Position numbers and translations under genes: made by a program
Assembly: GCA_052389315.1 (NCBI GenBank)
Contig: JBQTIE010000295.1
Coordinates: 5,255 to 69,254, forward strand
DNA from: Acidobacteriota bacterium
GTDB lineage: Bacteria > Acidobacteriota > Vicinamibacteria > Vicinamibacterales > UBA2999
DNA: 64,000 nt
Direction: 5' to 3'
Shown here: positions 1-41,200 of the stretch, in pieces
Position numbering within the stretch: the first letter of the stretch is position 1
Layout: each line of letters starts with the position of its first letter
Notes under the pieces: generated by a model
Told to the model about the DNA's origin: nothing
The model's database searches: none
The model's input: only the letters and a program-made list of their open reading frames with translations

Positions 1-193
1 TGGACCAGGCAGAGCCGCGAGCCTCGCCGTCCATCCCAGGACGACGGGAATGGTGTTCGACGCGTCTCGCCCCCGAAGCGGGGCCGGCTGTTGCGAGCGC
101 CAACGGCGCCAGAACGCTCGAACGGCGCCGACATGCGGCTGGCGGTACCGAGTCACCCCGACGTGAGGAGCGGCCGCCAAGGGCATTGAGGGG

Positions 194-1762
194 TCAAGGG
201 CCTTCGCCAAGCAGGCTCGTCAAGAACGCTCGCGCCACATCTCGTGGATCCTGCCGCAGCCCGTCCACGGCATGGTTCATCCGCTGCATGGCCGTGGCGT
301 CGATACGCCCCGCCAGCAGCCGGATGGCGTCGTCGAGCTCAGGATAGCGCAGCAGCGTCGCGGCGTGAACCACCGGTACGGCGTCGTACGGCGGAAAGTA
401 GCGGCGATCGTCGGTCAGGGTCGCCAGGTTCAAGGCAGGGATGAGTCCACTCGTGGCATCGCCGGCCGTCACGTCGATCTCTCCGGCGGCCACCGCACGA
501 TAGATGAGATTGAGGTCCATGACGCGTGGGGCGTCGCGGAAGCGGAGCCCATAGGTGCGAGCGAGACCGGCCAGGCCGTCGGGGCGCTCGAGGAACTCGT
601 ACCCAAACCCGGCCGTCGCTCGTGGTGCGACGCGGGCGAAGTCGGAGATCGTTGTCAAGCGCTCGGCCGCTGCGAAGTCCTGTCGCACCAGCACCGCGAA
701 GGTGTTGTTGAAGCCGAGTCCGGGCAGCATGGTGATGCCGCGCGCGGCATACAGATCGCGCACGCGGGCGAAGACCTCGGCCGAGCGCGACTCCGCCCCG
801 GGCGCGGATGCCCCGGGCGCCGAGAGCGCCTGATCGAAGAGGGCGGTCAGCGCCGTGCCTGTGTACTCGACATACACGTCGATGTCGCCCCGCCCGAGCG
901 CTTGATCGCACACGAGCGTCCCGCCGAGGTTCAGCCGCCGGTCCACGCTCAGCCCCGTTTGTCGCTCGATGACCTGGGCCAGCAGTTCGCCCAGGATGAT
1001 CTGCTCAGTGAAGTTCTTCGAGCCCACGACCACCGCGCCGGCAGGCGCAGCCCGAAAGCTCCAGACTCCAACCGCCCCGCCGAGAACCACCATGGCGACG
1101 AGCGCGCGCCTCAGCCTCGGCGTGCCTCGCCGCGGGTCGACCGCGCGCCCGGTGAGGGCCAACAGCCCATCCGCGGCCAGCGCGAGCCCGGCGGCCGGCA
1201 CGGCCCCGGCAAGGATCACGACGGGATCCACCATCGCCAAGCCACGGAAGATGTAATCGCCCAGCCCGCCGGCCCCGATGGCGGAGGCGATGGTTGCCGT
1301 GCCCACGCCCACCACGGTCGCCACTCGGACGCCCGCGAGGATGGCTGGTGCGGCCAGCGGCATTTCGACCTGCCAGAGCACCTGGCGTCGCGTCATGCCC
1401 ATGGCCACCGCGCACTCGAGCACGGCCGGGTCCACGCCCTTCAAGCCGGCCACCGTCGTGCGCACGATGGGCAGCACGGCATACATCGTCAACGCCACGA
1501 GCGCGGTGCGCGTGCCGATGCCGCCGATCAAGGGGAGCGGAATGAGGAACCCGAACAGTGCAAGGCTCGGAATGGTCTGTGCCAGATTCGCGAGCCCCAC
1601 CAGGGGCCGCGCCAGCGTGGGTCGCCTCGCCGCCAGCACGCCGAGGGGAATGCCGATCAGCGCCGCGATGGTCGTCGACGCGACGACGAGGACCAGATGC
1701 TCGCCCAGACGGACGAGCAGCTCGTCTCGGTGCGACGCCGCGAAGGCCACGAGGGCGCTCAT
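194..1762 (-). CDS. ABC transporter permease fused to a periplasmic substrate-binding domain (glycine betaine/choline OpuB/OpuC type)
   Basis: From ORF 194..1834. The N-terminal half is a multi-TM binding-protein-dependent permease (TIPSLALFGFLIPLP, AVAMGMTRRQVLWQVEMPLAAP). The C-terminal half resembles osmoprotectant binding proteins (VVVGSKNFTEQIILGEL, DIDVYVEYTGTAL). Start set to ATG 1762, which overlaps the upstream ATPase stop by 4 nt. Confidence 0.85.
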   Translation of the reverse strand: MSALVAFAASHRDELLVRLGEHLVLVVASTTIAALIGIPLGVLAARRPTLARPLVGLANLAQTIPSLALFGFLIPLPLIGGIGTRTALVALTMYAVLPIVRTTVAGLKGVDPAVLECAVAMGMTRRQVLWQVEMPLAAPAILAGVRVATVVGVGTATIASAIGAGGLGDYIFRGLAMVDPVVILAGAVPAAGLALAADGLLALTGRAVDPRRGTPRLRRALVAMVVLGGAVGVWSFRAAPAGAVVVGSKNFTEQIILGELLAQVIERQTGLSVDRRLNLGGTLVCDQALGRGDIDVYVEYTGTALTALFDQALSAPGASAPGAESRSAEVFARVRDLYAARGITMLPGLGFNNTFAVLVRQDFAAAERLTTISDFARVAPRATAGFGYEFLERPDGLAGLARTYGLRFRDAPRVMDLNLIYRAVAAGEIDVTAGDATSGLIPALNLATLTDDRRYFPPYDAVPVVHAATLLRYPELDDAIRLLAGRIDATAMQRMNHAVDGLRQDPRDVARAFLTSLLGEGP

Positions 1763-2481
1763 CCGAATCGAGTCTCCATCAGCGCACGCACGTGCGGATT
1801 GGCGTGGCTGTCGAGGCCGGCCGGCGTCTCGCACGCCACGATCCGCCCTTCGTGCAGAACGGCGATCCGCGCGGCCAGCGCGAAGGCTTCCGCCAGGTCG
1901 TGCGTCACGAGCAGGACCGCACGAGGTTGCCGCTGCTGAAGCGCCCGGAACTGGCGATGCAGCTCTACGCGCGTGATCGGGTCGAGCGCCCCGAACGGTT
2001 CATCCATGAGCAGTACCGGCGGGTCCGCGGCCAGCGCGCGTGCAAGCCCGACGCGCTGGCGTTGACCGCCCGACAATTGGTCGGGCCATCGCGGACGATA
2101 GGTGCCAGGATCGAGGTCCATGAGCGCGAGCAGCTCGTCCACGCGCGATGCCACGCGCGGGGGGGCCCAGCCGAGCAGGCGCGGCACCAACCCGATGTTG
2201 CCGCCAACGGTCAGGTGGGGAAAGAGCCCGACCTCCTGGATGGCATAGCCGGTCTGGCGCCGCAGCGCCATCGGATCCCAGGTCCTCACGTCGCGGCCAC
2301 CGAGGCGCACTTCACCGGCGTCGGCATACAGCAGGCAGTTGACGAGCTTGAGTAGCGTGGTCTTGCCGCTCCCGCTCTTCCCGACGAGAGCGACGACCTC
2401 GCCTCGTTCGACGGTCAGTGTGATGCCGTCGAGCACGGGCCGGTGTCCTCGCGTGGCGACGACGTCGCGGAACTCGATCAC
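1759..2481 (-). CDS. ABC transporter ATP-binding protein (osmoprotectant uptake type, no C-terminal CBS domains)
   Basis: Walker A GKSGSGKTT, ABC signature LSGGQRQRVGLARAL and Walker B LLMDEPFGALD. The stop overlaps the start of the permease gene. Confidence 0.9.
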   Translation of the reverse strand: MIEFRDVVATRGHRPVLDGITLTVERGEVVALVGKSGSGKTTLLKLVNCLLYADAGEVRLGGRDVRTWDPMALRRQTGYAIQEVGLFPHLTVGGNIGLVPRLLGWAPPRVASRVDELLALMDLDPGTYRPRWPDQLSGGQRQRVGLARALAADPPVLLMDEPFGALDPITRVELHRQFRALQQRQPRAVLLVTHDLAEAFALAARIAVLHEGRIVACETPAGLDSHANPHVRALMETRFG

Positions 2482-2490
2482 GGCGGCTCC

Positions 2491-3180
2491 TCAGAACTCG
2501 GCAAACACGAGCGCGCTCAGCGACAGCCACCCGCGACTGCGATTCTCGAGATCGACACCGCGCCACCGGCGCACGTAGCGTGCTTCGCCGCGAACCCCCG
2601 CCACGCGGCCCCCGCGTGATCCCTCCCGAAGCGACAGCCTCACGCCGGCCCCGCCGTGCAGCGTGCGCCCAGACTCCACGCGGACGCGATCTTCATGCAG
2701 CTGCCTGAGATAGCCCCCGCCACCAATCGCGTACGGTTTCCAGCGGGCGCCAGGGCGGGTGCCTGGAAGCTGGACAACGCCGCTCAGGTCGAGGATGAAC
2801 GTGTCGAGCGCGGAACGGACGTGCACCCCGGATCCGGCTTCGCTGTCCCCCGTAATCTTCACGCCGACAGACGGCCTGGCGTAGCTGGCGCCCACCTCGA
2901 AACCCACGACGCGCGTGAAGGCCCAACCGGCGCGCGCATCGACGGCGGTCACGCCCTCGATGGCCGACTCGGTGCGAAACAGCGTGAACGCGGCCGGCGT
3001 GCCGGCCGTGTTGCGCCGCTGCTGCGCATCGAGCTCCCCGATGCCGTGTGACGACCAACGCCCGATGCCCGCCGAGAGGGACAGCTGCCTCGGACGAGGG
3101 ACCGGCCGGGTTTGAGCGACCGCGTTGGAGGCGATCAGCAGGACCAACCACAGCGCCCACCCCGCGGTGCGCGGGTTCAT
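2491..3180 (-). CDS. outer membrane beta-barrel protein (hypothetical)
   Basis: Signal peptide MNPRTAGWALWLVLLIASNAVAQT, alternating beta-strand-like pattern, and a C-terminal aromatic residue (..ALVFAEF). The start overlaps the matrixin stop (ATGA). Confidence 0.6.
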   Translation of the reverse strand: MNPRTAGWALWLVLLIASNAVAQTRPVPRPRQLSLSAGIGRWSSHGIGELDAQQRRNTAGTPAAFTLFRTESAIEGVTAVDARAGWAFTRVVGFEVGASYARPSVGVKITGDSEAGSGVHVRSALDTFILDLSGVVQLPGTRPGARWKPYAIGGGGYLRQLHEDRVRVESGRTLHGGAGVRLSLREGSRGGRVAGVRGEARYVRRWRGVDLENRSRGWLSLSALVFAEF

Positions 3181-4169
3181 TTGGGTCTCACCGTGACGTC
3201 CACAGGCGGCGGGCTGCCGCCGGCGGGCGCCACCACCACGCGCTCCGCATAGCTGACGCGAAAGTCGACGTCGATCGCTCCGGAAAGAAACGCGTCGGTG
3301 TCGGCGTCGTCCAAGGGTTCGACCCTGAGCACGTACAGGCCGGGGGCGAGGCCCGCGATGGCATACTCACCCGACGCATCGAGGCTGAAGCCGCCGACCA
3401 GCGCACCGGTGGCCAGGTTGAACGCGGCAACGTGAGCGCCGAACACTCCCGTGCCTCCCTTCAGGACGCGGCCGCCGATGCTCCCGCTCATGCGCCTGAA
3501 GTCGCCGGCCGGATAGAGATCGCTGATGCCCGCCTCGTCGTCGGGCTGCAGGACGCGGTCGGCGACCGACCCCGAGCCGAACGCAATCGGAAACATGACG
3601 GCGCCCGACGCGATGACACGGCGCCCTCCGGCCACCAGCTCTGTCTCACCGAGCGCCGAGTGGCCGAGACCCAGCAGGTGCCCAATCTCGTGCACGGCTA
3701 CTGATTCCAGATCGACGCGTCCCGGTTCGCCGGCCGCGGCCGTCGACCACTCGAAGCGTGCGTTGAAGAAGACATCCGCCTCGAGAATCTCGCCGCTTGC
3801 CGAATCGATCAGGAAGCTGGTGGCGCCGAGCACACGATCGAGCTCCGGGCGGTCCAGGAACCCGAGCGTCGAGCGGCCATCCTGCGCGCCAGGAGGCGCA
3901 CTGGTCACGCCGAGAAACTGACTCTGCACCGACGCTGTCGGCACGCGCTGCCACGTCGCAAAGGCGCGCATCACCGCGTCGCGGAACTGCGTGGCGTCGA
4001 CGCCGGGCACACCGCGCTCGGTCACGAAGTACGTCACCGGCCGGGACCATCGAATGGCCACGACGGTTCCGCCGGCGCGGACGCCAAACTTCAGGTACGC
4101 GGACGCGCCTGCCGGCCAACCCACGATCGTGGCGGCGACGATCAAGCCTGCGATCGCTCGACTCATCAT
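3177..4169 (-). CDS. secreted matrixin-family zinc metalloprotease with a C-terminal carboxypeptidase-regulatory-like beta-sandwich
   Basis: Signal peptide, zinc motif HEIGHLLGLGHS, a Met-turn region (GAVMFP) and a C-terminal tail GEYAIAGLAPGLYVLRVEP typical of CarboxypepD_reg-like domains. ATGA overlaps with both neighbouring genes. Confidence 0.75.
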   Translation of the reverse strand: MMSRAIAGLIVAATIVGWPAGASAYLKFGVRAGGTVVAIRWSRPVTYFVTERGVPGVDATQFRDAVMRAFATWQRVPTASVQSQFLGVTSAPPGAQDGRSTLGFLDRPELDRVLGATSFLIDSASGEILEADVFFNARFEWSTAAAGEPGRVDLESVAVHEIGHLLGLGHSALGETELVAGGRRVIASGAVMFPIAFGSGSVADRVLQPDDEAGISDLYPAGDFRRMSGSIGGRVLKGGTGVFGAHVAAFNLATGALVGGFSLDASGEYAIAGLAPGLYVLRVEPLDDADTDAFLSGAIDVDFRVSYAERVVVAPAGGSPPPVDVTVRPK

Positions 4170-4705
4170 GGGTTCCGGTAGGAGCTGATCACGGCGTCGA
4201 AGGCTTCGATCGAGAGCAGCGGTCGGCCCGGCGCGCCGCGCAGGACGCGGCCTCCCTCACTCGCTCGTAGCGGCGGCGGCGACACGCGCCCCTCGCCCGT
4301 CCTCGAGTCTCGTACGACACGGAACACCCCCTGCCCCAGGCCGACCGGGGTCGGGATGGCCGGACCCCGACCCGCCAGAAACAGGACGACGAGGTCGCCC
4401 TCGCGAAAGACCGGCGCGCCAGGTATGACGTGCATGCGGCCTCCTGCCTCCCCCCCTGGCGTGCGAATCATGACCGTCGCCCCCCAATCGCCCTTGAAGT
4501 AGCGCAAGGTCTCGAGGGTCATCACGCTGTCGATGGATCGACGATCGGCGGTCCACTGGCCGCGCACCTCCGCCACGCGCGCCAGGACCACGACCGAGGC
4601 TTCCTCGACGAGCTGCTCGAAGGTCATCGGCACGACCGTCGCCGCGCTCAACGACACGCTCGACAAGGTCCCGACGGCCAGGGCAACCTGCAGGCCTCGC
4701 ATCAT
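4166..4705 (-). CDS. hypothetical secreted protein, homologous to the N-terminal domain of the 39473..41200 protease
   Basis: Signal peptide MMRGLQVALAVGTLSSVSLSAA. No family recognised. By eye it aligns with residues about 45-170 of the 575-aa matrixin protein (..VVVLARVAEV..W..FKG..GG..GDLVVLFL..GLGQGVFRVV.. versus ..DVIVSGRVDGV..W..FKG..GG..GERVLLFL..GLWQGKWQVV..). Confidence 0.55.
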   Translation of the reverse strand: MMRGLQVALAVGTLSSVSLSAATVVPMTFEQLVEEASVVVLARVAEVRGQWTADRRSIDSVMTLETLRYFKGDWGATVMIRTPGGEAGGRMHVIPGAPVFREGDLVVLFLAGRGPAIPTPVGLGQGVFRVVRDSRTGEGRVSPPPLRASEGGRVLRGAPGRPLLSIEAFDAVISSYRNP

Positions 4706-5970
4706 GCGAGTGATCCCTTCTGACGCCCTGTCCGGGGCTCGTCGCCCGCCGAGAGACGCGGAAGCTGTTGATGGGCCCGCTCCCGGCGCGCGACGTCGAG
4801 GATCGCATCCGCCGCTCTTCCGCTCGCACCTGGTCCGCCGAGCCGCTCACGAACGATCTGGAGCTGCGTCTTCATCTCGGCGACCCGCCGGGCGTTGGTC
4901 AACAAGTCCACGGCCTCTCGGGCCACGGCGTCTGGCGTGCAGTGATCTTGAATCAACTCTGTCACGACGCGATCGCCCGCCACGAGATTCACCATGCTGA
5001 ACATCGAGACGCGCACGAGCCGCCGGCCGAGCTGGTAGGTCACTGGCGACAGGCGATAGACCACCGCCATGGGTTTGCCATGCAGGGCCGTCTGAATCGT
5101 CGCGGTTCCGGAGGCGGTCACCACGACGTCGCTGGCCGCCAGCACGTCGTCGGTCTGGCCTTCGACCACGCGAACCTGGGCGCCCACGCCCTGGAATGGC
5201 AGGAAGAACGAATCGGGCAGCTGTGGGGCACGCGCCACCAGGAACTGCGTCCCGTTGACCTCCGACGCGATGCGCGGCATCGCCGCGGCAAGCACCGGCA
5301 CGAGGCGGTGCACCTCATTGGGCCGGCTGCCGGGCAGGAGCGCAACCACCGGCCTCGACGTGTCGAAACCCAGGCGCTCGATGAGGGACTCTCTCGATTC
5401 GCGCACGACCGCAAGATCGACCAGGGGATGGCCGACAAACTCCACGTCGAGGCCCTCGTCGCGGTAGAGCGACTCCTCGAAGGGAAAGATCGGCAGCACG
5501 CGGTCCACGACGGCCTTCATCGTCCGGATGCGACCGGGCCGCCAGGCCCAGAGCTGCGGGCTGACGTAGTACACGACGGGCACGCCGAGCCGGTGGACGG
5601 CGGTCATCAGCCGAAAATTGAAATCCGGGTAATCGACGAGCACGAGCGCGTGCGGACGCTCGGCGCGGGCAGCCCGCACCAGGCGCCGGAGCATCGCATA
5701 GGAGTCCGGCAGCACGCGCAGGGCTTCGACCAGGCCGGTGACCGCCAGCCCGCGACAGTCGCCGACCAGACGGCCGCCGGCGGCCGAGAACCGCTCGCCA
5801 CCCAGGCCAAACACCTCGACGGTCGGCTCTCGTGTGCGGAGCGCCTGCACGAGGGCACCGGCATACAGGTCGCCGGAAGCCTCACCGCACGAGAGCATCA
5901 CTCGCACGGGCGTCGTCGAGGATGGCCCTCGGGGCGCCTCGCGACGCGCGGTGCTCGCCACCCCATTCAC
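4702..5970 (-). CDS. lpxB: lipid-A-disaccharide synthase
   Basis: Typical LpxB sequence (SCGEASGDLYAGALVQAL, DYPDFNFRL, VYYVSPQLWAWRPGRI, PFEESLY). The N-terminal roughly 20 codons may be upstream of the true start. Confidence 0.85.
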   Translation of the reverse strand: MNGVASTARREAPRGPSSTTPVRVMLSCGEASGDLYAGALVQALRTREPTVEVFGLGGERFSAAGGRLVGDCRGLAVTGLVEALRVLPDSYAMLRRLVRAARAERPHALVLVDYPDFNFRLMTAVHRLGVPVVYYVSPQLWAWRPGRIRTMKAVVDRVLPIFPFEESLYRDEGLDVEFVGHPLVDLAVVRESRESLIERLGFDTSRPVVALLPGSRPNEVHRLVPVLAAAMPRIASEVNGTQFLVARAPQLPDSFFLPFQGVGAQVRVVEGQTDDVLAASDVVVTASGTATIQTALHGKPMAVVYRLSPVTYQLGRRLVRVSMFSMVNLVAGDRVVTELIQDHCTPDAVAREAVDLLTNARRVAEMKTQLQIVRERLGGPGASGRAADAILDVARRERAHQQLPRLSAGDEPRTGRQKGSLA

Positions 5971-5976
5971 CCCGGG

Positions 5977-8307
5977 CTACCGAGTCGGGCGGGCGAAGGT
6001 GTCGGGGGCGAACCTGGGGTTGATAATCACCTCGACGAGCACGCGTTCCATCATGACGCGTCCCTGGCGGCGCAGTGAGGACTTGAACGGCACGCGAACA
6101 CCATCGACGCGGCGATAGTCGTCGAACCATTCTTCGACGGTGGGTTCGCCCGTCCCTCTCGCGGCCTGGTAGGCCAGCTTCACGAGCGTGCCGTGCGCGT
6201 CGAAGAACATCGAGACGGGCGCGAGCTGGCGTCCCGACGCCGTCAGCACTTTCAGCACTTGTCCCTGGTGCCCTTCCTCGGGCTTGAGCGTCAGCTCCAC
6301 GAGCCCCGTCGCGGCGGCGCGCAGCAAGGCGATGGGGTCTCGGAGCACGCTCGCATGAAAATCCTTCAGCATCTCGGGCGGCGCCTCACGAATTCCCGCC
6401 GGGTCCTTCAGCCAGCCCTTCCCGTCAGCGTAGATCTGCAAAATCTCCGCGTCGGGCAACCGGGCTTCCACGCGCACGCGATCCGGGTATTCGATCGCCG
6501 TATGCGTCGAGGCCTTCACCGGACCTTCGGGCGTCATGATCGTCGTCGTGGCATCGGCGGTCAGCCGTTTGACCGACGTCAAGGCCTCGAGCCCCCCATG
6601 GGCGTCGATGGCTCTGCCGATAATGGCGTCGACCGAGGCCTGCCCGGGCGTCGCGCGCGAGGGCCCTCCGGACGAGGTCCGCTGATACGACGGCGTCTCG
6701 AGCAGGAGGCGACCAGTCGACGCGACGTCGAATGGCGGACGCGCGCCGGGCCGCGGGCTGCGAGCGCCGGCCTCACCAACGGGGCTGCCCCCCCTCCGCA
6801 GGTCGGCGGCGAGCAGGTCCACCTGGTCGATCGGGATGCGCTCGAACTCGCCGAAGCCAACCCCTTTGAGGTCGTTGACGAACCCATTGGCGTTGCCCAC
6901 GAGCACGACCGCCAGGCGATCGGGCCGGAGGTAGGAGCGCGCCACGCGCTGGACGTCGTCGGGCGACACGCTGCGGACCCGCTCGGGGAACGTCTCCAGT
7001 TCGTCGAGTGGCAGCCCGTAGAAAAGCTGGTTGAGCACCTGGGTCGCAATGGCGTCGGGTGTTTCAATCGTCAACGGAAAATGCCCGGCGAGGTACGCCT
7101 GTGCGCCTTCCAGCTCGCCTTCGTAGACACGTTCGCGCTGGAGCTTCTGGAACTCGTCAATGGTCAGCCGCAGCACCTCGGCGGTCGCATCCGTTCGCGT
7201 GTCCGTTTCGGCGACGACGCCGCCCGCCGTCTTGTAGCTGTCCAGGTCGGCTGACGCACCGTAGGTCAGCCCGCGCTGGGACCGCAGGACCTGCTGCAGG
7301 CGGTTGGCGCCTTCGCCGCCGAGAATCTTGATGGCCTGGTCGAGCGCCATGAAATCATCGTGCCGCCGCGGGATTCCGATCTGGCCGACCCGGATCTCGG
7401 TCTGCACCGCGTCCGGCTTGTCGATCACGACGACCCGTCTGGTGGGCGGCGGCGGCTCGATGGGCGTGAACGGCGGCACGTCGCGTCTCGCCCAGTCATC
7501 GAACGTCTTGCGCAGCTGGTCCAGCGCCTCGTCTGCGCTCACGTCGCCGACAATCGCGAGCAGGGCGTTGTTCGGTACGTAGTAGCGGCGATGGAAGTCG
7601 GCGATGTCGTCTCGCGTCAGGGACCCAATCGACTCCGGGGTGCCGTTGCCCGGCAGTCCGTACGGGTGAAACCCGTAGACCAGCCGGTCGATCACCTGAT
7701 TGGCGACGGTATTGGGATCCTCCGCCGCCACGCGCAGCCCCGAGAGCGCCTGCTGACGTTGTCGCTCCAACTCTTGGGGCGCAAGGGTCGGTCGGCGCAC
7801 CACGTCCGACAGCAGCCGCAAGGCCAACGGCAGGCTGTCCTTCATCACGATGGCGTTGACGAAGGTCAGGTCCGTCCCTGCCCCCGTGCCGAGAATGCCG
7901 CCGATGAAGTCGATCGAGTCGGCGATTTGCTCGGCCGTGCGGTCGCCGGCGCCCTGATCGAGCAGCGCCGCCGTCAACATGGCCAGACCCATCTTCCCCT
8001 TGGGATCCTGCGCCGCGCCCGCCCGAATCAACATCCGGACGCTCACCGCCGGCTGTTCGTGATGGCTGACGAGCACGACCTGAAGGCCGTTGGCCAGCGT
8101 GCGAATCTCATAGGGTGGAAACTTGACGGCCCGTGAGGGCAGGGGCCGCGGAGGCCGCTCAGTCGGCCACTGCCGCACCTGTTGCGTCGCCTGACGCGCC
8201 GAGGTGCGGTGCGTATCGGCCGTGGCGGGGACGCTGGCGCAAAGCAGCGCCGAGCTGAGTCCGAGCACTCCGTACGCCAGCCAGACGCGCAGCCCGAGCG
8301 CCATCAT
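5977..8307 (-). CDS. M16-family peptidase-like protein (non-catalytic subunit type) with a C-terminal extension of roughly 270 aa
   Basis: Insulinase-fold sequence without HxxEH at the expected position (GLAMLTAALLDQG). At 776 aa it is far longer than the usual roughly 450 aa. The C-terminal third (..TTTIMTPEGPVKASTHTAIEYPDRVRVEARLPDAEILQIYADGKGWLKDP..) looks like a LolA-like beta-fold by pattern only. Confidence 0.75.
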   Translation of the reverse strand: MMALGLRVWLAYGVLGLSSALLCASVPATADTHRTSARQATQQVRQWPTERPPRPLPSRAVKFPPYEIRTLANGLQVVLVSHHEQPAVSVRMLIRAGAAQDPKGKMGLAMLTAALLDQGAGDRTAEQIADSIDFIGGILGTGAGTDLTFVNAIVMKDSLPLALRLLSDVVRRPTLAPQELERQRQQALSGLRVAAEDPNTVANQVIDRLVYGFHPYGLPGNGTPESIGSLTRDDIADFHRRYYVPNNALLAIVGDVSADEALDQLRKTFDDWARRDVPPFTPIEPPPPTRRVVVIDKPDAVQTEIRVGQIGIPRRHDDFMALDQAIKILGGEGANRLQQVLRSQRGLTYGASADLDSYKTAGGVVAETDTRTDATAEVLRLTIDEFQKLQRERVYEGELEGAQAYLAGHFPLTIETPDAIATQVLNQLFYGLPLDELETFPERVRSVSPDDVQRVARSYLRPDRLAVVLVGNANGFVNDLKGVGFGEFERIPIDQVDLLAADLRRGGSPVGEAGARSPRPGARPPFDVASTGRLLLETPSYQRTSSGGPSRATPGQASVDAIIGRAIDAHGGLEALTSVKRLTADATTTIMTPEGPVKASTHTAIEYPDRVRVEARLPDAEILQIYADGKGWLKDPAGIREAPPEMLKDFHASVLRDPIALLRAAATGLVELTLKPEEGHQGQVLKVLTASGRQLAPVSMFFDAHGTLVKLAYQAARGTGEPTVEEWFDDYRRVDGVRVPFKSSLRRQGRVMMERVLVEVIINPRFAPDTFARPTR

Positions 8308-9665
8308 CGGGCGCCTCCCTTCGGCATGACATGGAGCACGACGCGCCGCGCGGGCGTGAAGTACGTCTGCGCGACCCGTTGCACATCGGCGAGGGAGATG
8401 TTCTGAAAGATGTCGAACTCGCCGTCGGCCGTCTTGATGTCGGAATGAATGACTTCGGCGTGCGCCAGATGGGTGGCCTTGTCCTGGAGCGAATCACGGC
8501 CGAGGATGTAGTCGCGTGCAAACTGGTTCTTGGCCCGCTGCAGCTCACGATCCGAGATCCCGTCCTTCTTGAGCCGATCCAGCTCCCCGATCAATGCCTT
8601 CTCGACCTCCGCCGGCGATCGGCCCGGATTGACGATCGCGACGGCGAAGAACAGGTTGGGGTGCTCGATGATGTTGCCGCTGCCGAATGCGGTGAGCGCG
8701 AGGCCCGTGTCATAGACCAGGCGCCGATAGATGCGCGAACTCTGCCCGTCCGACAACACCTTGGAGACGATGTGCAGCGGATACGAGTCGGGATGGCCGT
8801 CGTAGGTGATGTGATGCGCGACGACGACCGCCGGCAGCGGCCAGGGCTCCTCCACCGTCGTCCGGCGCTCCTTTTTCGACTCTGGCTCTCGAGGAATGTC
8901 GCGCGGCACCGCCTTGGCGGCGGGCGGAACGCGAGCCAGATAGCGCTGCACGAGCTCGGTCGCCTGATCGACGTCGAAGTCGCCGGCGATGACGATGGTG
9001 CAGTTCGCCGGCACATAGTAGGTCTGGTAGAACTCCCGGACGTCGTCGACCGTCGCGGCCTCGAGGTCCTTCATGCTGCCAATCACCGGATGCTTGTAGG
9101 GATGCACGGTGAACGCCGACTCGAAGAGGATCTCGTTGAGGCGGCCGTACGGCTGGTTCTCGATGCGCATGCGACGCTCTTCCTTGACGACGTCGCGCTC
9201 GTTGCGGAACGTCCGATCGTCGATGCGCAGCGTGGCCATCCGGTCGGCCTCCATCCACAGCACGAGCGGCAGGTACTGGGCCGGCACCGTCTGCCAGTAC
9301 ACCGTGGCGTCTTCGGTGGTAAACGCGTTGGCGCGGCCGCCCACCGACGAGACAATCGACGTGTGCTGTTCCGGCTCGACGTTCTTCGAGCCCTTGAACA
9401 TCAGGTGTTCGAACAGATGCGCAAATCCGGTTCGCCCGCTCCGCTCGTCCTTCGAGCCCACGTGATACCAGAGCTGGACGTGCACGATGGGCGTGGACCG
9501 GTCCTGGTGCAGCAGGACCGTCAGGTCGTTGGGCAGGGTGAGGCGCTGGTAGTCGAGCTTGGGCGGCCTGACGGCCGCATCGACGTCCACCCGCCAGGGC
9601 CACACGGCCACGGCGGCCGCCAGCCACACGAGCAGCCACGAAACACGAAATGCAGGATTCGTCAT
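8304..9665 (-). CDS. M16-family zinc peptidase (catalytic subunit type)
   Basis: Inverted zinc motif HLFEH within GFAHLFEHLMFKGSK. Signal/TM segment MTNPAFRVSWLLVWLAAAVAVW. Start moved to ATG 9665 inside ORF 8304..9872. The stop overlaps the next M16 gene. Confidence 0.85.
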   Translation of the reverse strand: MTNPAFRVSWLLVWLAAAVAVWPWRVDVDAAVRPPKLDYQRLTLPNDLTVLLHQDRSTPIVHVQLWYHVGSKDERSGRTGFAHLFEHLMFKGSKNVEPEQHTSIVSSVGGRANAFTTEDATVYWQTVPAQYLPLVLWMEADRMATLRIDDRTFRNERDVVKEERRMRIENQPYGRLNEILFESAFTVHPYKHPVIGSMKDLEAATVDDVREFYQTYYVPANCTIVIAGDFDVDQATELVQRYLARVPPAAKAVPRDIPREPESKKERRTTVEEPWPLPAVVVAHHITYDGHPDSYPLHIVSKVLSDGQSSRIYRRLVYDTGLALTAFGSGNIIEHPNLFFAVAIVNPGRSPAEVEKALIGELDRLKKDGISDRELQRAKNQFARDYILGRDSLQDKATHLAHAEVIHSDIKTADGEFDIFQNISLADVQRVAQTYFTPARRVVLHVMPKGGAR

Positions 9666-38199: not shown

Positions 38200-38568
38200 T
38201 TATGCGGGATGCGATATCGAGGAGGCCGCCGCCATCGCGAGCAGGAGCTCGCGAAGGTAATACGCGAGCGTGGCCGCGGCCGCCACCAGGACGATCATGC
38301 GTACGAGCGCCGCGGGCGTTCCCATCCGGCGCTGCATGATGAGCTGAATCGGCTGCCACGCGAGAAAGAACAGCAAGTAGGACGCTCCGATGCCAAGGGC
38401 CAGGCCCACTCGTGGAATCAGCAGGACCGGCAGCAGCGTCAGGATGAAGACGCCGCCCACCCAGACGCCCACCGTCAGCCAGCGCAGCTCCGCCGGCGAG
38501 ATGAGGATTGGTGCAGCCAGGGGGTCGGTGGTCGGACTCGGAAGGGGATTCTGGGAGATCGCGGACAT
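38200..38568 (-). CDS. hypothetical small membrane protein
   Basis: 122 aa with three hydrophobic helices (WLTVGVWVGGVFILTLLPVLLI, LALGIGASYLLFFLAW, LVRMIVLVAAAATLAYYL). It fills the gap upstream of ruvX. No family recognised. Confidence 0.45.
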   Translation of the reverse strand: MSAISQNPLPSPTTDPLAAPILISPAELRWLTVGVWVGGVFILTLLPVLLIPRVGLALGIGASYLLFFLAWQPIQLIMQRRMGTPAALVRMIVLVAAAATLAYYLRELLLAMAAASSISHPA

Positions 38569-38592
38569 CAGGCCAGTGTATCCTCCCCCAGC

Positions 38593-39369
38593 ATGCCGGA
38601 CTGGTTCGTCGCCCTCTCACCGGTAACCCAGGCGCTGCTGGCCACGATCGGCACCTATCTGCTCACCGCGATCGGGACGACGCCCGTCCTCTTCTTCCAT
38701 CAAGCCCCGCGGCGCCTGATGGACGCGCTGATGGGCGGCGCGGCAGGCGTCATGGTCGCCGCCTCGTGCTGGTCGCTCCTCCAGCCGGCGATCGAGCTGG
38801 GAGGCACATGGCCCGCCGTCGTCGGCCTCGCGTTGGGGGGACTCTTCATTTTCGCGCTCGACCAGTTGCTGCCTCATCTGCATCCCGAGTTCCCGGACGA
38901 GGCGCAGGCTGAGGGCCCCGGCTCGAGCTGGCGCCGCGCGGTGCTGCTGATGGTCGCCATCACGATCCACAACTTCCCCGAAGGCCTGGCCGTCGGCGTG
39001 TCGTTCGGCGGCGGGGAGCCCGGCACCGCCCTGGCCCTCGCCATCGGGATCGGCCTTCAGAACATCCCGGAAGGCCTCGCGATCGCGCTGCCGCTTCGAC
39101 GCGAAGGGATGAGCCGCGTCCGCGCGTTCTGGTACGGTCAATTGTCCGCAACCGTCGAGCCGGTCGCGGGCGTGCTCGGTTGCGCGCTGGTCCTGGTCGC
39201 GCAGCCCGTGCTGCCCTACGCGATGGCATTTGCGGCTGGCGCCATGTTGTACGTCGTGGTGGAAGAACTGCTTCCGGAAACGACCCGTCAGGGCAATACA
39301 GACGTGGCCACGCTCGGCTTCCTGACCGGGTTCCTCATCATGATGGCGATGGACACGTCGCTCGGCTAG
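38593..39369 (+). CDS. ZIP-family divalent metal transporter (ZupT/GufA-like)
   Basis: This is the tail of ORF 37660..39369, starting at ATG 38593. It contains HNFPEGLAVGVSF, GIGLQNIPEGLAIALPL and FAAGAMLYVVVEELLPE. Confidence 0.85.
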   Translation: MPDWFVALSPVTQALLATIGTYLLTAIGTTPVLFFHQAPRRLMDALMGGAAGVMVAASCWSLLQPAIELGGTWPAVVGLALGGLFIFALDQLLPHLHPEFPDEAQAEGPGSSWRRAVLLMVAITIHNFPEGLAVGVSFGGGEPGTALALAIGIGLQNIPEGLAIALPLRREGMSRVRAFWYGQLSATVEPVAGVLGCALVLVAQPVLPYAMAFAAGAMLYVVVEELLPETTRQGNTDVATLGFLTGFLIMMAMDTSLG

Positions 39370-39472: not shown

Positions 39473-41200
39473 CTACCGCACGAGGAAGTCGGCCGGGACA
39501 GACGATCCGCAATCGTTCACTGCGATAACCCGCACCCAGGCTGCGAATCCGGGGACCACACCACTCGCGCTCACGCCGGTCGTGGTGCCGATGTTGGTGA
39601 GCGGCACCAGATCGGAGGCGCCGGGCGAGGTGCCCGCCTGGAAGAGGTAATGGATCACACCCGGCACCGCGACCCAGCTCGCCATGGCGATTCCGTTGAC
39701 CACACCGCCGACGATGGCCGGCGTCGGCGGGGGTTCGGTGCAGGATGCGCCGATGGCAAAAGCAAACGGTGGCGACGTGGGCCCCGGCACCAGGCCGGCA
39801 AAGGCCGTCACTTGGACGCTGAACGTGCCGGCGGTCCCCGCGGCCAGTGGCAGCGACACCGTAGTCGCCGGACCCACGATGATCGTGACCGCGAGCGCGC
39901 TGCCGACAAAGAAATCGAGGCGGTGCGACGTGGGTGCCGCCCCCGGTCCCAGCGTCCAATCGATGGTCAGGAGTTCGCCAATGGCGCTCGCGCGCTGCAC
40001 GCTCACGCTTCCTGGCACTCCACCGAGTGATAGCGGATAGATGAAGTGAATGCCTGCCAGGTCATCTGGACCAAGGGCGCTGGGGCTCCCGGCGCAGTCA
40101 CGGTTGAGCGACGGAAACATGATGGCCGATGGATCACTCGAATGGCCCAGGCCGAGCACGTGCCCCAGCTCGTGCAGCTGGATGTCTTGAAAGCAGCCGC
40201 TCACGTTCAGAAACTCCTGCGCGATGGGGCTGTCGTTGTTGATGATGAAGCCCTCGAGGGCGAGCCGGAACGGCTGGCCGCTGACCGAGATCGAGGCGCT
40301 CATGGTGAAGTAGGACCCCCCGACGGCGAGCGTCCCACCGCTGTTGCTAATCTCTCCGCACGGATCCAGGTATGAGATCGTCACGCCGTAGGTGCCGAGG
40401 AACTGGCTGGCGCACCGCGGCGGCGAAGAGGACGAACCGGGGAGAAACCGGAACGCGGCGCCCGCAGCGTTCCATGCCTGCACGGCCGCCTGAACCTCGG
40501 CGACACCGCCTCCGGGCAGACCGGGCTGCCCTCCCGCCTGCAGTTCAACCGTCGGCAAAAAGGTGTACCGAAAGGGCGTGGTCATGAGCATGAAGCGCTG
40601 GTGGCCGACGGTCGGACGCGACCACTCGCCGCCGTCACCCACCGTCACGGAAGCCGCCGACATGCCCGACTGCCGGAGGGCCGACAGCGGCAGGGCCTGT
40701 CCTCCTCGCAGCGCCACGCGCTCGCCGTCGGCGAAGGTGACCACTTGCCACTTGCCCTGCCAGAGGCCGGCCGTGTACAACGATCGGTCACGCGGCCGTG
40801 CCTCGAGGAACAGCAGGACCCGCTCACCTGAGACGAAGGTCGCCTGGTCGATCACCGAAAGAGCTGTGTCGCCGACCAGTCCGCCCAGCTGCTTCACGGC
40901 CAAGGGACCGGCTGAGATCGCCCCCTTGAACACCTCGTCCACGTCGAGCAACACCCAGGTGTAGATGGCACCGGCGCCGGCTTCCCACCCCGATACCACG
41001 CCATCGACTCGTCCGCTGACGATGACGTCCGAGAATCGCCAGAGGTCTCCGACCGCCCAGGTGGGCGCCGAGCTCGCCGCGACACGCTGGGGAGGCACCC
41101 CGAGCATCAGCGCAACGAGCGCGAATCCGACAGGCACGACGCTGACCCGAATGACGACCCCCTGTTTGGCAGCCCGCCGATGCGGCGGAGCGAGAATCAA
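39473..41200 (-). CDS. secreted multidomain matrixin-like zinc metalloprotease (N-terminal partner-like domain, protease domain, two C-terminal Ig/FN3-like domains)
   Basis: Signal/TM segment, then a region homologous to the stand-alone 4166..4705 protein, then zinc motif HELGHVLGLGHSSDPSAIMFP. The last roughly 190 aa are two beta-rich segments (..LTIDWTLGPGAAPTSHRLDF.. and ..ASWVAVPGVIHYLFQAGTSPG..VRVIAVNDCG..). Confidence 0.7.
   Translation of the reverse strand: MILAPPHRRAAKQGVVIRVSVVPVGFALVALMLGVPPQRVAASSAPTWAVGDLWRFSDVIVSGRVDGVVSGWEAGAGAIYTWVLLDVDEVFKGAISAGPLAVKQLGGLVGDTALSVIDQATFVSGERVLLFLEARPRDRSLYTAGLWQGKWQVVTFADGERVALRGGQALPLSALRQSGMSAASVTVGDGGEWSRPTVGHQRFMLMTTPFRYTFLPTVELQAGGQPGLPGGGVAEVQAAVQAWNAAGAAFRFLPGSSSSPPRCASQFLGTYGVTISYLDPCGEISNSGGTLAVGGSYFTMSASISVSGQPFRLALEGFIINNDSPIAQEFLNVSGCFQDIQLHELGHVLGLGHSSDPSAIMFPSLNRDCAGSPSALGPDDLAGIHFIYPLSLGGVPGSVSVQRASAIGELLTIDWTLGPGAAPTSHRLDFFVGSALAVTIIVGPATTVSLPLAAGTAGTFSVQVTAFAGLVPGPTSPPFAFAIGASCTEPPPTPAIVGGVVNGIAMASWVAVPGVIHYLFQAGTSPGASDLVPLTNIGTTTGVSASGVVPGFAAWVRVIAVNDCGSSVPADFLVR

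What the first reader, a model, noticed from the sequence alone, without database searches (positions are those of the whole stretch)
2491..4705. Matrixin protease and its unknown partner occur once as separate genes and once as a fusion
On the minus strand, three genes overlap by ATGA junctions at 4166..4169 and 3177..3180.
- A 179-aa secreted protein of no recognised family (4166..4705).
- A matrixin-type zinc protease, HEIGHLLGLGHS (3177..4169).
- An OMP-like beta-barrel (2491..3180).

About 35 kb away, the 575-aa protein at 39473..41200 carries a domain homologous to the 179-aa protein, then a matrixin domain (HELGHVLGLGHS) and two Ig/FN3-like domains. By-eye alignment shows shared blocks: V.V..RV..V...W, FKG, GG, G..V.LFL and GL.QG...VV.

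A split versus fused arrangement in the same genome argues that the unknown domain works with the protease, for example as a pro-domain, inhibitor, chaperone or substrate-recognition module. The barrel may be its export or anchoring partner. I know of no description of this module.
Basis: partly seen in the sequence, partly recalled or inferred. Interest (0 to 1): 0.55.

Follow-up and report, generated by a model that had tools for sequence, protein, structure and literature searches.

The report
TIMP-like partner domain of bacterial matrixins
A small secreted protein of no described family is always encoded just upstream of, or fused to the front of, bacterial relatives of animal matrix metalloproteases. 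Its predicted fold most resembles the animal inhibitors of those enzymes (TIMPs), so it is probably a built-in latency or inhibitor module.

Summary
The three minus-strand genes sit at the stated coordinates and are joined by ATGA overlaps. A fourth ATGA links the upstream gene lpxB to p179.

The 179-aa protein (p179) is homologous to the N-terminal domain of the 575-aa matrixin (p575). Profile-profile comparison gives 99.7% probability, E 8e-26, over 117 columns. Reversed, catalytic-domain and C-terminal controls give E of at least 0.01.

The family has no Pfam or NCBIfam model but is large: 8,242 clusters at 50% identity. In every sampled locus with enough downstream sequence (about 100), the next gene is a matrixin-type protein. 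This includes distant lineages with other protease architectures. A second fusion type also exists, with two tandem copies followed by a zincin domain.

A high-confidence AlphaFold model (pLDDT 91) matches NTR/TIMP OB-fold modules first. The Foldseek E-values are marginal, and there is no sequence-level similarity to TIMPs and no cysteine. The domain starts at the predicted mature N-terminus, with a conserved Pro at position 5, as in TIMPs. The partner protease has no prodomain.

Best reading: a trans or cis latency/inhibitor module, analogous to the potempins. A role as foldase or adaptor is not excluded. The barrel is an OMP, but it is specific to one lineage.

The parts
4166..4705 (-). p179: secreted 179-aa partner protein with a predicted NTR/TIMP-like OB fold. 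The family has no described model.
   Evidence: ORF. No Pfam or NCBIfam family. Homologous to the p575 N-terminal domain. AF2 model has pLDDT 91.3 and pTM 0.82. The Foldseek PDB top 25 are almost all NTR modules: agrin NtA, TIMP-1/-2/-3, PCOLCE NTR and complement C3 C345C.
4640..4705 (-). p179 signal peptide (residues 1-21 or 1-22). Ala21 at position -1 is nearly invariant.
   Evidence: MMR + hydrophobic core + SLSA|A. Ala21 is present in 90 of 94 diverse family members. The cleavage site is inferred from the AxA rule; no predictor was run.
4628..4642 (-). Predicted mature N-terminal segment A22-T-V-V-P26. The conserved Pro is at mature position 5.
   Evidence: Family profile: T 70/94, V, L/V, V, P 80/95, directly after the AxA site. 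The register is the same as C1-T-C-V-P5 of TIMP-1 (sequence verified against PDB 1d2b). The best local hhalign path aligns V25-P26 with TIMP V4-P5, but this is not significant.
4283..4627 (-). OB-fold core of p179 (residues 27-141). This is the region homologous to p575 residues about 48-166.
   Evidence: hhalign aligned columns 26-138 and 27-144. Model secondary structure is H29-35 then strands 38-51, 58-71, 77-83, 105-111, 127-132 and 139-141. K71, G72, G85, G96 and G126 are invariant.
4217..4282 (-). Conserved but low-confidence loop (residues 142-163, SPPPLRAS..GR..RGA..R). Candidate interaction segment, not aligned to p575.
   Evidence: P143, P144, P145, S149, G152, R156, G157 and R161 are invariant in the close family. 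pLDDT is 66-69 in an otherwise >90 model. Not covered by the hhalign match.
3177..4169 (-). p330: secreted matrixin (M10A-type) protease without a prodomain, plus a C-terminal CarboxypepD_reg-like Ig domain.
   Evidence: PF00413 at 1.2e-12, residues 43-219; PF13620 at 2.3e-6, residues 230-284. Closest PDB sequences are MMP-16 and karilysin. The signal peptide ends ...ASA|YLKFG and the catalytic domain begins within about 15 residues. A|Y or G|Y is found in 54 of 79 orthologues, and most of the rest read one column out of register.
3660..3692 (-). p330 zinc-binding motif H160-EIGHLLGLG-H170, followed by Ser171. The Met-turn is at M192.
   Evidence: read directly from the sequence.
2491..3180 (-). 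p229: small outer-membrane beta-barrel protein. Third gene of the Vicinamibacteria-type block.
   Evidence: Signal peptide ...AVA|Q and C-terminal ...LVFAEF. 11 of 20 orthologues hit PF13505 OMP_b-brl, best E 2.3e-7. Present after the matrixin wherever there is room in L001-L025 and L030-L109. Absent in Ignavibacteriaceae and other distant contexts.
4702..5970 (-). lpxB (lipid-A-disaccharide synthase). Its stop codon overlaps the p179 start as ATGA. It is context, not part of the module.
   Evidence: PF02684 at 7.5e-86. ATGA at 4705..4702. lpxB is upstream of the p179 homologue in essentially all Vicinamibacteria-type loci.
39473..41200 (-). p575: fused form. Order is signal peptide, partner-domain homologue, matrixin catalytic domain, C-terminal Ig/FN3-like region.
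   Evidence: NCBI annotates a 554-aa product from an internal start (P0121).
40703..41059 (-). p575 N-terminal domain (residues about 48-166), homologous to p179.
   Evidence: hhalign Prob 99.7%, E 7.8e-26. The diverse-family HMM hits it at E 6.9e-19, and the reciprocal N575 HMM hits p179 at E 1.5e-13. In the 575 family the signal peptide ends AxA|x-S/T-G-P-K/R-W-S, so the domain again starts at the mature N-terminus.
40142..40174 (-). p575 zinc-binding motif H343-ELGHVLGLG-H353, followed by Ser. The Met-turn is AIMFP.

Best explanation
p179 is a Sec-exported soluble periplasmic or secreted protein with an NTR/TIMP-like OB fold. It is made in fixed proportion with the matrixin p330, because the genes overlap as ATGA and are probably translationally coupled. 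The proposal is that p179 binds p330 1:1 and keeps it latent or inhibited until the protease reaches its site of action.

p330 needs such a partner. After signal-peptide removal it starts directly with the catalytic domain (A|YLKFG...). It has no cysteine-switch or other prodomain.

In p575 the homologous domain occupies the position of a prodomain. It lies between the signal peptide and the catalytic domain, so it would play the same role in cis.

The likely contact elements are two. One is the free mature N-terminal segment (x-T-V-V-P), which has TIMP-like geometry. The other is the conserved flexible loop at residues 142-163.

Shown here:
- the homology between p179 and the p575 N-terminal domain;
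- the strict gene linkage and the existence of fusions;
- the predicted fold class;
- the absence of a prodomain in p330;
- the conserved placement of the domain at the mature N-terminus.

Inferred, not shown:
- physical binding;
- inhibition;
- which surface contacts the active site;
- the signal-peptide cleavage sites;
- translational coupling.
For: (1) Homology of the split and fused forms: with negative controls.

(2) Strict linkage. A matrixin-type gene lies immediately downstream in 25 of 25 Vicinamibacteria-type genome loci and 2 of 2 informative Ignavibacteriaceae genome loci. The same holds in 69 of 69 metagenome loci with more than 195 nt downstream. It also holds in 7 of 7 distant contexts with unrelated flanks and different protease architectures of 329-918 aa.

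(3) Two independent fusion architectures: the p575 family and P0388, with two domain copies, a HEFGHGIGIGHS zincin and FN3. Split and fused paralogues coexist 30-45 kb apart in two other genomes.

(4) Fold. The AF2 model has pLDDT 91.3. The Foldseek top 25 are almost all NTR modules, ranking ahead of nearly all generic OB folds, whether the lower-confidence or the high-confidence model is used. N-TIMP-3 aligns with target-normalised TM 0.62 and rmsd 3.2 A over 113 columns.

(5) The mature N-terminus is conserved and sits exactly 4 residues before an invariant-like Pro, as in TIMP C1-x-C-x-P5. In the fused family the domain also begins at the mature N-terminus.

(6) p330 orthologues start A|YLKFG with no prodomain.

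(7) Precedents.
- Potempins are small OB-fold or beta-barrel inhibitors encoded immediately upstream of their target proteases. The targets include the bacterial MMP karilysin (PMC9890683).
- Listeria carries a metzincin/TIMP-like pair (PMC8235301).
- TIMPs inhibit through their free N-terminus (PMC2871463).
Against: - There is no sequence-level similarity to TIMPs. Pfam TIMP and NTR models do not hit any of 88 members. hhalign against four TIMP N-domains gives E 0.15.
- Foldseek E-values are only 1e-3 to 1e-1, with query-normalised TM 0.33-0.44.
- p179 has no cysteine. The Cys1 and disulfide scaffold that positions the TIMP N-terminus is therefore absent.
- An NTR fold alone does not make an inhibitor. 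The PCPE-1 NTR domain does not inhibit metzincins, and no inhibitory activity has been reported for agrin NtA (PMC2871463).
- Two distant partners sit upstream of p330 homologues whose zinc motif reads QExxHxxGxxH (L111, L114). If those proteins are inactive, keeping the partner argues for a structural, chaperone or adaptor role rather than pure inhibition.
- No complex model, binding data or activity data exist.
- Most sampled loci are orthologous and share synteny, so they are not independent observations.
Confidence: 0.55

Rival explanations
1. p179 is a dedicated periplasmic foldase or secretion chaperone: a prodomain supplied in trans. It is needed for p330 to fold or to be handed to its export or anchoring route, and it is then released. 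The p575 N-terminal domain is the classical cis intramolecular chaperone. Any inhibition would be incidental.
For: The linkage and fusion evidence applies equally here. The domain sits in the prodomain position in p575. The partner is retained next to QExxH-variant proteases that may be inactive. The secretion chaperone CsaA appears among the weaker OB-fold Foldseek hits, at E 0.02-0.1 with high rmsd.
Against: Matrixin catalytic domains generally fold without a chaperone (established knowledge of recombinant MMP catalytic domains). The best structural matches are inhibitor-type NTR modules, not chaperones. Many protease prodomains both fold and inhibit, so this rival overlaps with the best explanation.
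Confidence: 0.2
2. The domain is a ligand- or substrate-binding or anchoring module. Non-TIMP NTR modules such as agrin NtA bind matrix components. On this reading the domain targets the protease to a cell-envelope or extracellular polymer. In Vicinamibacteria it may act together with the p229 barrel.
For: The top Foldseek hits are agrin NtA, the laminin-binding NTR. The triad is embedded after lpxB in a conserved envelope-related block. The barrel co-occurs in that lineage.
Against: A targeting module encoded as a separate soluble protein needs its own stable interaction with the protease, so it still implies binding. The barrel is missing in other lineages, where the pair persists. The domain always sits at the mature N-terminus, immediately before the catalytic domain, which is typical of prodomains. 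Substrate-binding exosites in this protein family are C-terminal: CarboxypepD_reg, PKD, FN3 and TIG.
Confidence: 0.15
3. The adjacency reflects only vertical inheritance of a conserved gene block, and the sequence similarity to p575 is an old domain duplication. There is no present-day functional coupling.
For: About 94 of the sampled loci share the same M16-M16-lpxB-triad(-ABC) synteny, so they count as few independent events.
Against: The pair persists in at least six unrelated genomic contexts and in other phyla, with different protease architectures. Two separate fusion architectures exist. The 4-nt ATGA overlaps argue for co-expression.
Confidence: 0.05

Closest known systems
[quoted passage not shown]
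   Same: The predicted five-stranded OB barrel with flanking helices gives NTR modules as its best PDB matches. The domain begins at the mature N-terminus after signal-peptide cleavage, with Thr/Ser near position 2 and Pro at position 5. Its partner is a matrixin, the protease family that TIMPs inhibit.
   Different: There is no detectable sequence homology. The protein has no cysteine, so no Cys1 zinc ligand and no disulfides. It has an extra conserved Pro-rich loop (142-163). It is bacterial, and it is either co-transcribed with its protease or fused N-terminally to it, which TIMPs never are. Inhibition has not been tested.
Potempins of Tannerella forsythia (PotA-karilysin and related pairs; PMC9890683)
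   Same: A small secreted beta-barrel or OB-fold protein is encoded immediately upstream of, and co-transcribed with, a secreted protease. For PotA the target is a bacterial MMP-like enzyme. Their function is specific inhibition that protects the cell's own envelope.
   Different: Potempins are outer-membrane lipoproteins of 98-132 residues; p179 has no lipobox Cys. PotA inhibits through two loops and an Asp that binds zinc, not through its N-terminus. No potempin structure appears in the Foldseek top 50. Potempins are restricted to one species, whereas this family has thousands of clusters. No fused form of potempins is described in the sections read.
Listeria Mtz-Tim pair (PMC8235301)
   Same: A bacterial metzincin is paired with an adjacent gene for a protein predicted, from structure only, to be TIMP-like.
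   Different: Tim is a lipoprotein encoded downstream of the protease. It is of phage origin and is cleaved by Mtz to release the TIMP-like fragment.
Serralysin inhibitors (Inh/AprI, MEROPS I38). This comparison rests on my own knowledge and was not tested here.
   Same: A periplasmic protein encoded in the operon of an M10-family metzincin. It inhibits by inserting its free N-terminal residues into the cleft, with the N-terminal amine on the zinc.
   Different: I38 inhibitors are eight-stranded up-and-down barrels that target M10B serralysins secreted by type I secretion systems. No such structures appear among the Foldseek hits.
MMP cysteine-switch prodomain and the short karilysin Asp-switch propeptide
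   Same: The position is the same as in p575: between the signal peptide and the catalytic domain. The presumed role, latency, is also the same.
   Different: The MMP prodomain is a three-helix bundle with the PRCGxPD motif. Here the domain is an all-beta OB fold without Cys, and it can be encoded as a separate gene.

Membership tests
Matrixin / Peptidase_M10 (p330) | Pfam PF00413 above the gathering score | tested here: met
   48.4 bits against a cutoff of 24, E 1.2e-12, residues 43-219 on profile positions 5-158 of 159.
Matrixin / Peptidase_M10 (p330) | HExxHxxGxxH followed by Ser, and a Met-turn | tested here: met
   H160-EIGHLLGLGH-S171 and A-V-M192-F-P.
Matrixin / Peptidase_M10 (p330) | Zymogen prodomain with the cysteine switch (PRCGxPD). 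This is typical of MMPs but not required for the catalytic family. | tested here: not met
   The catalytic domain starts about 15 residues after the predicted cleavage site ASA|YLKFG. There is no Cys upstream of the domain.
Matrixin / Peptidase_M10 (p575) | Pfam PF00413 above the gathering score, plus the zinc motif and Met-turn | tested here: met
   41 bits against a cutoff of 24, but only profile positions 109-158 are covered. HELGHVLGLGHS and AIMFP are present.
TIMP (Pfam PF00965 / MEROPS I35) for p179 | Sequence match to TIMP or NTR profiles | tested here: not met
   No Pfam TIMP or NTR hit in any of 88 members at E up to 1. A PDB profile search returned 0 hits. hhalign against TIMP-1 to -4 N-domains gives E 0.15, Prob 0.4%.
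TIMP (Pfam PF00965 / MEROPS I35) for p179 | N-terminal Cys1 (CxC) and a conserved disulfide framework | tested here: not met
   p179 contains no cysteine. The family consensus has none.
TIMP (Pfam PF00965 / MEROPS I35) for p179 | NTR-type OB fold | tested here: inconclusive
   NTR modules fill nearly all of the top 25 Foldseek hits with prob 1.00. However, E is 1e-3 to 1e-1, target-normalised TM is 0.38-0.62 and rmsd is 3-6 A. No coordinates were available for a manual topology check.
TIMP (Pfam PF00965 / MEROPS I35) for p179 | Domain starts at the free mature N-terminus | tested here: met
   Conserved AxA|(x)T-V-x-V-P directly after the signal peptide. The cleavage site is inferred, not measured.
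TIMP (Pfam PF00965 / MEROPS I35) for p179 | Tight 1:1 inhibition of matrixins | not testable with these tools
   Needs biochemistry or a multimer structure prediction.
Potempins | Gene immediately upstream of, and co-oriented with, the target protease gene | tested here: met
   ATGA overlap with p330. Adjacency is conserved.
Potempins | Outer-membrane lipoprotein (lipobox Cys) | tested here: not met
   No Cys in p179. The signal peptide ends SLSA|A, a type I site.
Potempins | Structural similarity to solved potempins | tested here: not met
   No potempin entry appears in the Foldseek PDB top 50, although the library holds entries released up to April 2026.
OMP_b-brl (PF13505) for p229 | Profile match, signal peptide and C-terminal aromatic residue | tested here: met
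   11 of 20 orthologues hit PF13505, best E 2.3e-7; p229 itself is below reporting. The signal peptide ends AVA|Q and the C-terminus is ...FAEF.

The most novel reading that the evidence does not exclude
This large bacterial family is a true, very distant homologue of the metazoan NTR/TIMP module. On this reading the matrixin-plus-TIMP-like-inhibitor pair is an ancient, originally bacterial two-component unit, and animals inherited or acquired both halves. In bacteria it would inhibit through a cysteine-free N-terminal wedge.
Probability: 0.15. Interest if true: 0.85.

Novelty: new variant of a known kind. Interest (0 to 1): 0.62.

Why it matters
Matrix metalloproteases and their TIMP inhibitors are a textbook animal regulatory pair. 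Bacterial matrixins are usually treated as rare and mostly unregulated oddities.

This finding would change that picture in three ways:
- It defines a widespread, unannotated bacterial protein family of thousands of clusters, with no Pfam or NCBIfam model. The only constant feature of the family is its partnership with a matrixin.
- It gives a testable mechanism for how prodomain-less bacterial matrixins are kept harmless in the periplasm.
- It offers a cysteine-free, TIMP-shaped scaffold that could be exploited as a specific MMP inhibitor.

It also bears on where the NTR/TIMP module came from. On the practical side, "hypothetical protein" annotations upstream of M10 genes in Acidobacteriota, Ignavibacteria and related soil and sediment lineages could be replaced by a family name.

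Tried and rejected
- Pfam and NCBIfam on p179 gave nothing. The only line was LIC_20196 at E 0.03, 14 bits against a cutoff of 230.
- Pfam on 88 diverse members gave only weak DUF4131 hits in 7 members, best E 1e-3. DUF4131 is the ComEC N-terminal domain. The hits were too weak to use.
- A PDB sequence search with the close-family profile gave only a spurious SasG repeat match at E 0.005. That match vanished with the diverse profile, which returned 0 hits.
- hhalign against a four-sequence TIMP N-domain alignment was not significant. TIMP-1 was verified against PDB.
- Foldseek against the viral BFVD library returned only generic SSB-like or DUF669 OB folds with rmsd above 10 A. There is no phage Tim-like relative.
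A four-sequence subset (A4) worked.
- The promoter and terminator scan of 1..9000 gave no promoter-like sites. Terminator-like sites were at or below the shuffle expectation.
- The PDB profile search for the barrel returned only chance hits.
- I considered p229 as an export pore for the protease and rejected it as a core feature. It belongs to the small-barrel OMP_b-brl family and is missing wherever the pair occurs outside the Vicinamibacteria block. The Ignavibacteriaceae proteases carry a T9SS C-terminal sorting domain instead.


Full report
**1. The observation**

The window has 67% G+C and comes from an Acidobacteriota MAG with locus tags ACT4QD_. On the minus strand it carries these ORFs:
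- p179 at 4166..4705;
- p330 at 3177..4169;
- p229 at 2491..3180.

The junctions read ...AAC CCA TGA / ATG ATG AGT and ...CCC AAA TGA / ATG AAC CCG. A further ATGA at 4705..4702 joins the upstream lpxB gene to p179.

p330 is a matrixin:
- It matches PF00413 at E 1.2e-12, above the gathering score.
- It carries HEIGHLLGLGHS and the Met-turn AVMFP.
- Its nearest solved sequences are MMP-16 and karilysin.
- It has a CarboxypepD_reg-like Ig domain at residues 230-284.

p575 (39473..41200) matches PF00413 at E 2.3e-10 and carries HELGHVLGLGHS and AIMFP. Its homologues carry Pfam fn3 at the C-terminus. NCBI annotates a 554-aa product from an internal start.

**2. Is the similarity between p179 and p575 real?**

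The evidence rises in strength:
- I built a 32-sequence alignment of the p179 family and a 107-sequence alignment of the p575 family. I cut out the p575 region before the catalytic domain. hhalign then gave Prob 98.5%, E 2.9e-15 over 112 columns.
- With a more diverse 88-sequence alignment of the stand-alone family, hhalign gave Prob 99.7%, E 7.8e-26 over 117 columns.
- Controls score far worse. The reversed target profile gave E 0.014-0.021, the p575 catalytic region 0.44-0.58, and the p575 C-terminal region 0.12-0.28.
- An HMM of the p179 family finds residues about 5-145 of many p575-type proteins. E-values reach 2e-9 when scaled to 1.84e9 sequences.
- More distant stand-alone members hit both p179 and p575 directly, for example L018 at 7e-34 and 9e-13.

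The homology is therefore established. The window holds exactly two copies of the domain and exactly two HExxHxxGxxH motifs, and they are paired one to one.

**3. How large is the family, and is it described?**

No Pfam or NCBIfam model matches p179 or any of 88 diverse members, apart from weak DUF4131 lines. A profile search of 1.84 billion 50%-identity representatives found 8,242 proteins at E up to 1e-3 and 1,601 at E up to 1e-10. The best 150 are mostly 170-210-aa stand-alone proteins. One of them, P0388 (707 aa), has two tandem copies followed by a HEFGHGIGIGHS zincin and an FN3-like region. This is a second, independent fusion architecture.

**4. Linkage to matrixins**

| Sample | Loci informative | What lies downstream |
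|---|---|---|
| GTDB species genomes, Vicinamibacteria-type | 25 of 25 | p330 orthologue, then a p229 orthologue, same strand and order |
| GTDB species genomes, Ignavibacteriaceae | 2 of 2 | 654-aa matrixin + CarboxypepD_reg + T9SS C-terminal sorting domain; no barrel |
| Metagenome scan seeded with a clade 35-40% identical to p179 | 69 of 69 with more than 195 nt downstream | p330 orthologue; three were found only by tblastn |
| More distant members (28-33% identity, e.g. Eiseniibacteriota-like), each in a different flanking context | 7 of 7 | Large secreted p330 homologue |

Two further genome loci were on contigs too short to judge.

Among the seven distant contexts, five downstream proteins have a Pfam M10 hit and an HExxHxxGxxH motif. 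The other two (L111, L114) read QExxHxxGxxH.

It was not met in any sample.

One caveat applies. The roughly 94 Vicinamibacteria-type loci share the same block, M16-M16-lpxB-p179-p330-p229(-ABC transporter), so they are not independent. The independent support comes from the distant contexts and from the two fusion types.

Split and fused forms are both stable paralogues. In two other genomes the p575 orthologue lies in the same S41-(M23)-p575 neighbourhood, 30-45 kb from the triad.

**5. What the domain looks like**

With the close-family alignment, AlphaFold gave pLDDT 74. With the diverse alignment it gave pLDDT 91.3 and pTM 0.82. The predicted elements, in order, are:
- a signal-peptide helix;
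- a short coil;
- helix 29-35;
- a five- to six-stranded beta core (residues 38-141);
- a lower-confidence loop (142-163);
- a C-terminal helix 166-177.

Foldseek against the PDB returned nearly the same top list for both models. It consists of agrin NtA (E 1e-3), TIMP-1, PCOLCE-1 NTR, TIMP-2, N-TIMP-3 (target-normalised TM 0.62, rmsd 3.2 A over 113 columns) and complement C3 C345C. All are NTR modules. With one exception (the chaperone CsaA at rank 12, high rmsd), generic OB folds such as SSB, ribosomal S28e and CsaA rank below them.

The E-values are marginal. Sequence methods see no relation to TIMPs. I therefore call this an NTR/TIMP-like fold, not TIMP membership. Potempin structures are not among the top 50 hits.

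**6. Features that bear on mechanism**

(a) Across 96 diverse members the signal peptide ends in a nearly invariant Ala (90 of 94). It is followed by (x)-T-V-L/V-V-P, with Pro in 80 of 95 members. The mature protein therefore starts four residues before a conserved Pro that leads into the first helix. TIMP-1 starts C-T-C-V-P, then a helix, then LVIRAK; I verified that sequence against PDB 1d2b. The best local hhalign path puts V25-P26 on V4-P5 and VVVLARV on LVIRAKF, but it is not significant.

(b) In the fused family the signal peptide ends AxA|x-S/T-G-P-K/R-W-S. The domain is again at the very N-terminus of the mature protein.

(c) p330 orthologues start A|YLKFG... and the catalytic domain follows at once. 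There is no prodomain and no cysteine switch.

(d) The 4-nt overlaps predict coupled, roughly stoichiometric synthesis. This is an inference.

(e) A conserved Pro- and Arg-rich loop (142-163) has low confidence in an otherwise confident model. That pattern is typical of a segment that orders only on binding. This too is an inference.

**7. Most likely mechanism**

The domain is a latency or inhibitor module for the matrixin. In the triad it acts in trans, and in p575 it acts in cis, in the prodomain position. It is exported by Sec and binds the freshly folded protease in the periplasm. It blocks the active-site cleft with its free N-terminal segment, with the 142-163 loop, or with both.

Three precedents make this plausible:
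- Potempins are small OB-fold or beta-barrel proteins encoded immediately upstream of their target proteases. They inhibit those targets specifically, including the bacterial MMP karilysin (PMC9890683).
- Listeria has a metzincin/TIMP-like pair (PMC8235301).
- TIMPs inhibit through the free N-terminus, and adding one Ala abolishes inhibition (PMC2871463).

I put this explanation at about 0.55.

The arguments against it are:
- p179 has no cysteine.
- It has no sequence similarity to TIMPs.
- NTR domains that do not inhibit are known, such as PCPE-1.
- The partner is retained next to QExxH-variant proteases that may be inactive.

**8. Rival explanations**

- Foldase or secretion chaperone, about 0.2. 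This overlaps with the prodomain idea.
- Ligand-binding, targeting or anchoring module, about 0.15.
- Mere synteny with no functional coupling, about 0.05. This is contradicted by the distant contexts and the fusions.

**9. The barrel**

p229 has a signal peptide and a C-terminal aromatic residue, and 11 of 20 orthologues match PF13505 OMP_b-brl. It is confined to the Vicinamibacteria-type block. In Ignavibacteriaceae the protease instead carries a T9SS sorting domain.

The barrel may anchor or receive the protease in that lineage, but it is not part of the conserved two-part module. Nothing here tests its role.

**10. Novelty**

Co-encoded protease inhibitors and prodomains are a known kind of system, and TIMP-like or OB-fold examples exist in bacteria. 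What is new here is:
- a very large, unannotated family with an NTR/TIMP-like fold;
- its strict partnership with matrixins across phyla;
- the demonstration that the same domain is used both as a separate gene and as an N-terminal fusion.

No paper in the searchable library describes it. I rate it a new variant of a known kind, with interest 0.62.

The most novel reading not excluded by the evidence is true, ancient homology with animal TIMPs. I give that a probability of about 0.15.

Noticed in passing
window 4702..4705 and 4702..8307; loci L001-L109, L115: The lpxB stop codon overlaps the p179 start as ATGA. The block M16-M16-lpxB-p179-p330-p229, often followed by a glycine-betaine-type ABC transporter, is conserved in essentially all Vicinamibacteria-type loci. 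This places the triad in a core envelope-biogenesis neighbourhood rather than an accessory island.
   Followed up: partly
L111:4561-6912 and L114:4585-6435: The proteins downstream of distant family members P0474 and P0384 are p330 homologues. Their zinc motif reads QExxHxxGxxH (IQEIMHCFGIDHS / NQEVQHCFGAEHT) instead of HExxH. They may be pseudo-proteases that still keep the partner gene.
   Followed up: partly
P0388 (707 aa): This protein has two tandem copies of the partner domain, followed by a HEFGHGIGIGHS zincin and an FN3-like region. It is a fusion architecture different from p575.
   Followed up: partly
L027:5555-7519, L028:5495-7459: In Ignavibacteriaceae the partnered matrixin carries a T9SS C-terminal sorting domain (Por_Secre_tail), and no barrel gene follows. 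This suggests that lineage-specific export or anchoring solutions are attached to a constant partner-protease core.
   Followed up: partly
window 38560..39369 (+), converging on the 3' end of p575; also L118:7376-7986: A ZIP-family zinc transporter gene (PF02535, E 2.6e-30) lies next to the zinc protease p575. It is also about 2.4 kb from the p575 orthologue in OY970174.1, but it is not within 3 kb in DATLXN010000040.1. This may be coincidence.
   Followed up: partly
window 41265..43570 (+); L117, L118: p575 is flanked, on the opposite strand, by genes for an M23 peptidase and an S41 (Ctp-like, PDZ) peptidase. The S41 gene is a neighbour in both other genomes examined; the M23 gene is a neighbour in one of them (L117). 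Together they form a cluster of envelope proteases.
   Followed up: no
L012 (CAZJBN010000030.1) and L016 (VFZG01000033.1): Contigs labelled as Bifidobacteriaceae and Acidimicrobiia MAGs carry the complete Vicinamibacteria-type M16-lpxB-triad block. These are probably binning contamination.
   Followed up: no
window 39473..41200: The longest ORF starts at a TTG (575 aa). NCBI annotates 554 aa from an internal start. Homologues have 20-30-residue signal peptides ending AxA just before x-S-G-P-K-W-S, so the true start is uncertain, but the mature N-terminus is not affected.
   Followed up: partly
P0225, P0228, P0236: Further p575-like matrixin paralogues are annotated from Acidobacteriota MAGs. 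One of them, P0225, carries the same ACT4QD_ locus-tag prefix as this window, on a different 3.6-kb contig. The genome therefore probably holds more than one fused copy.
   Followed up: no
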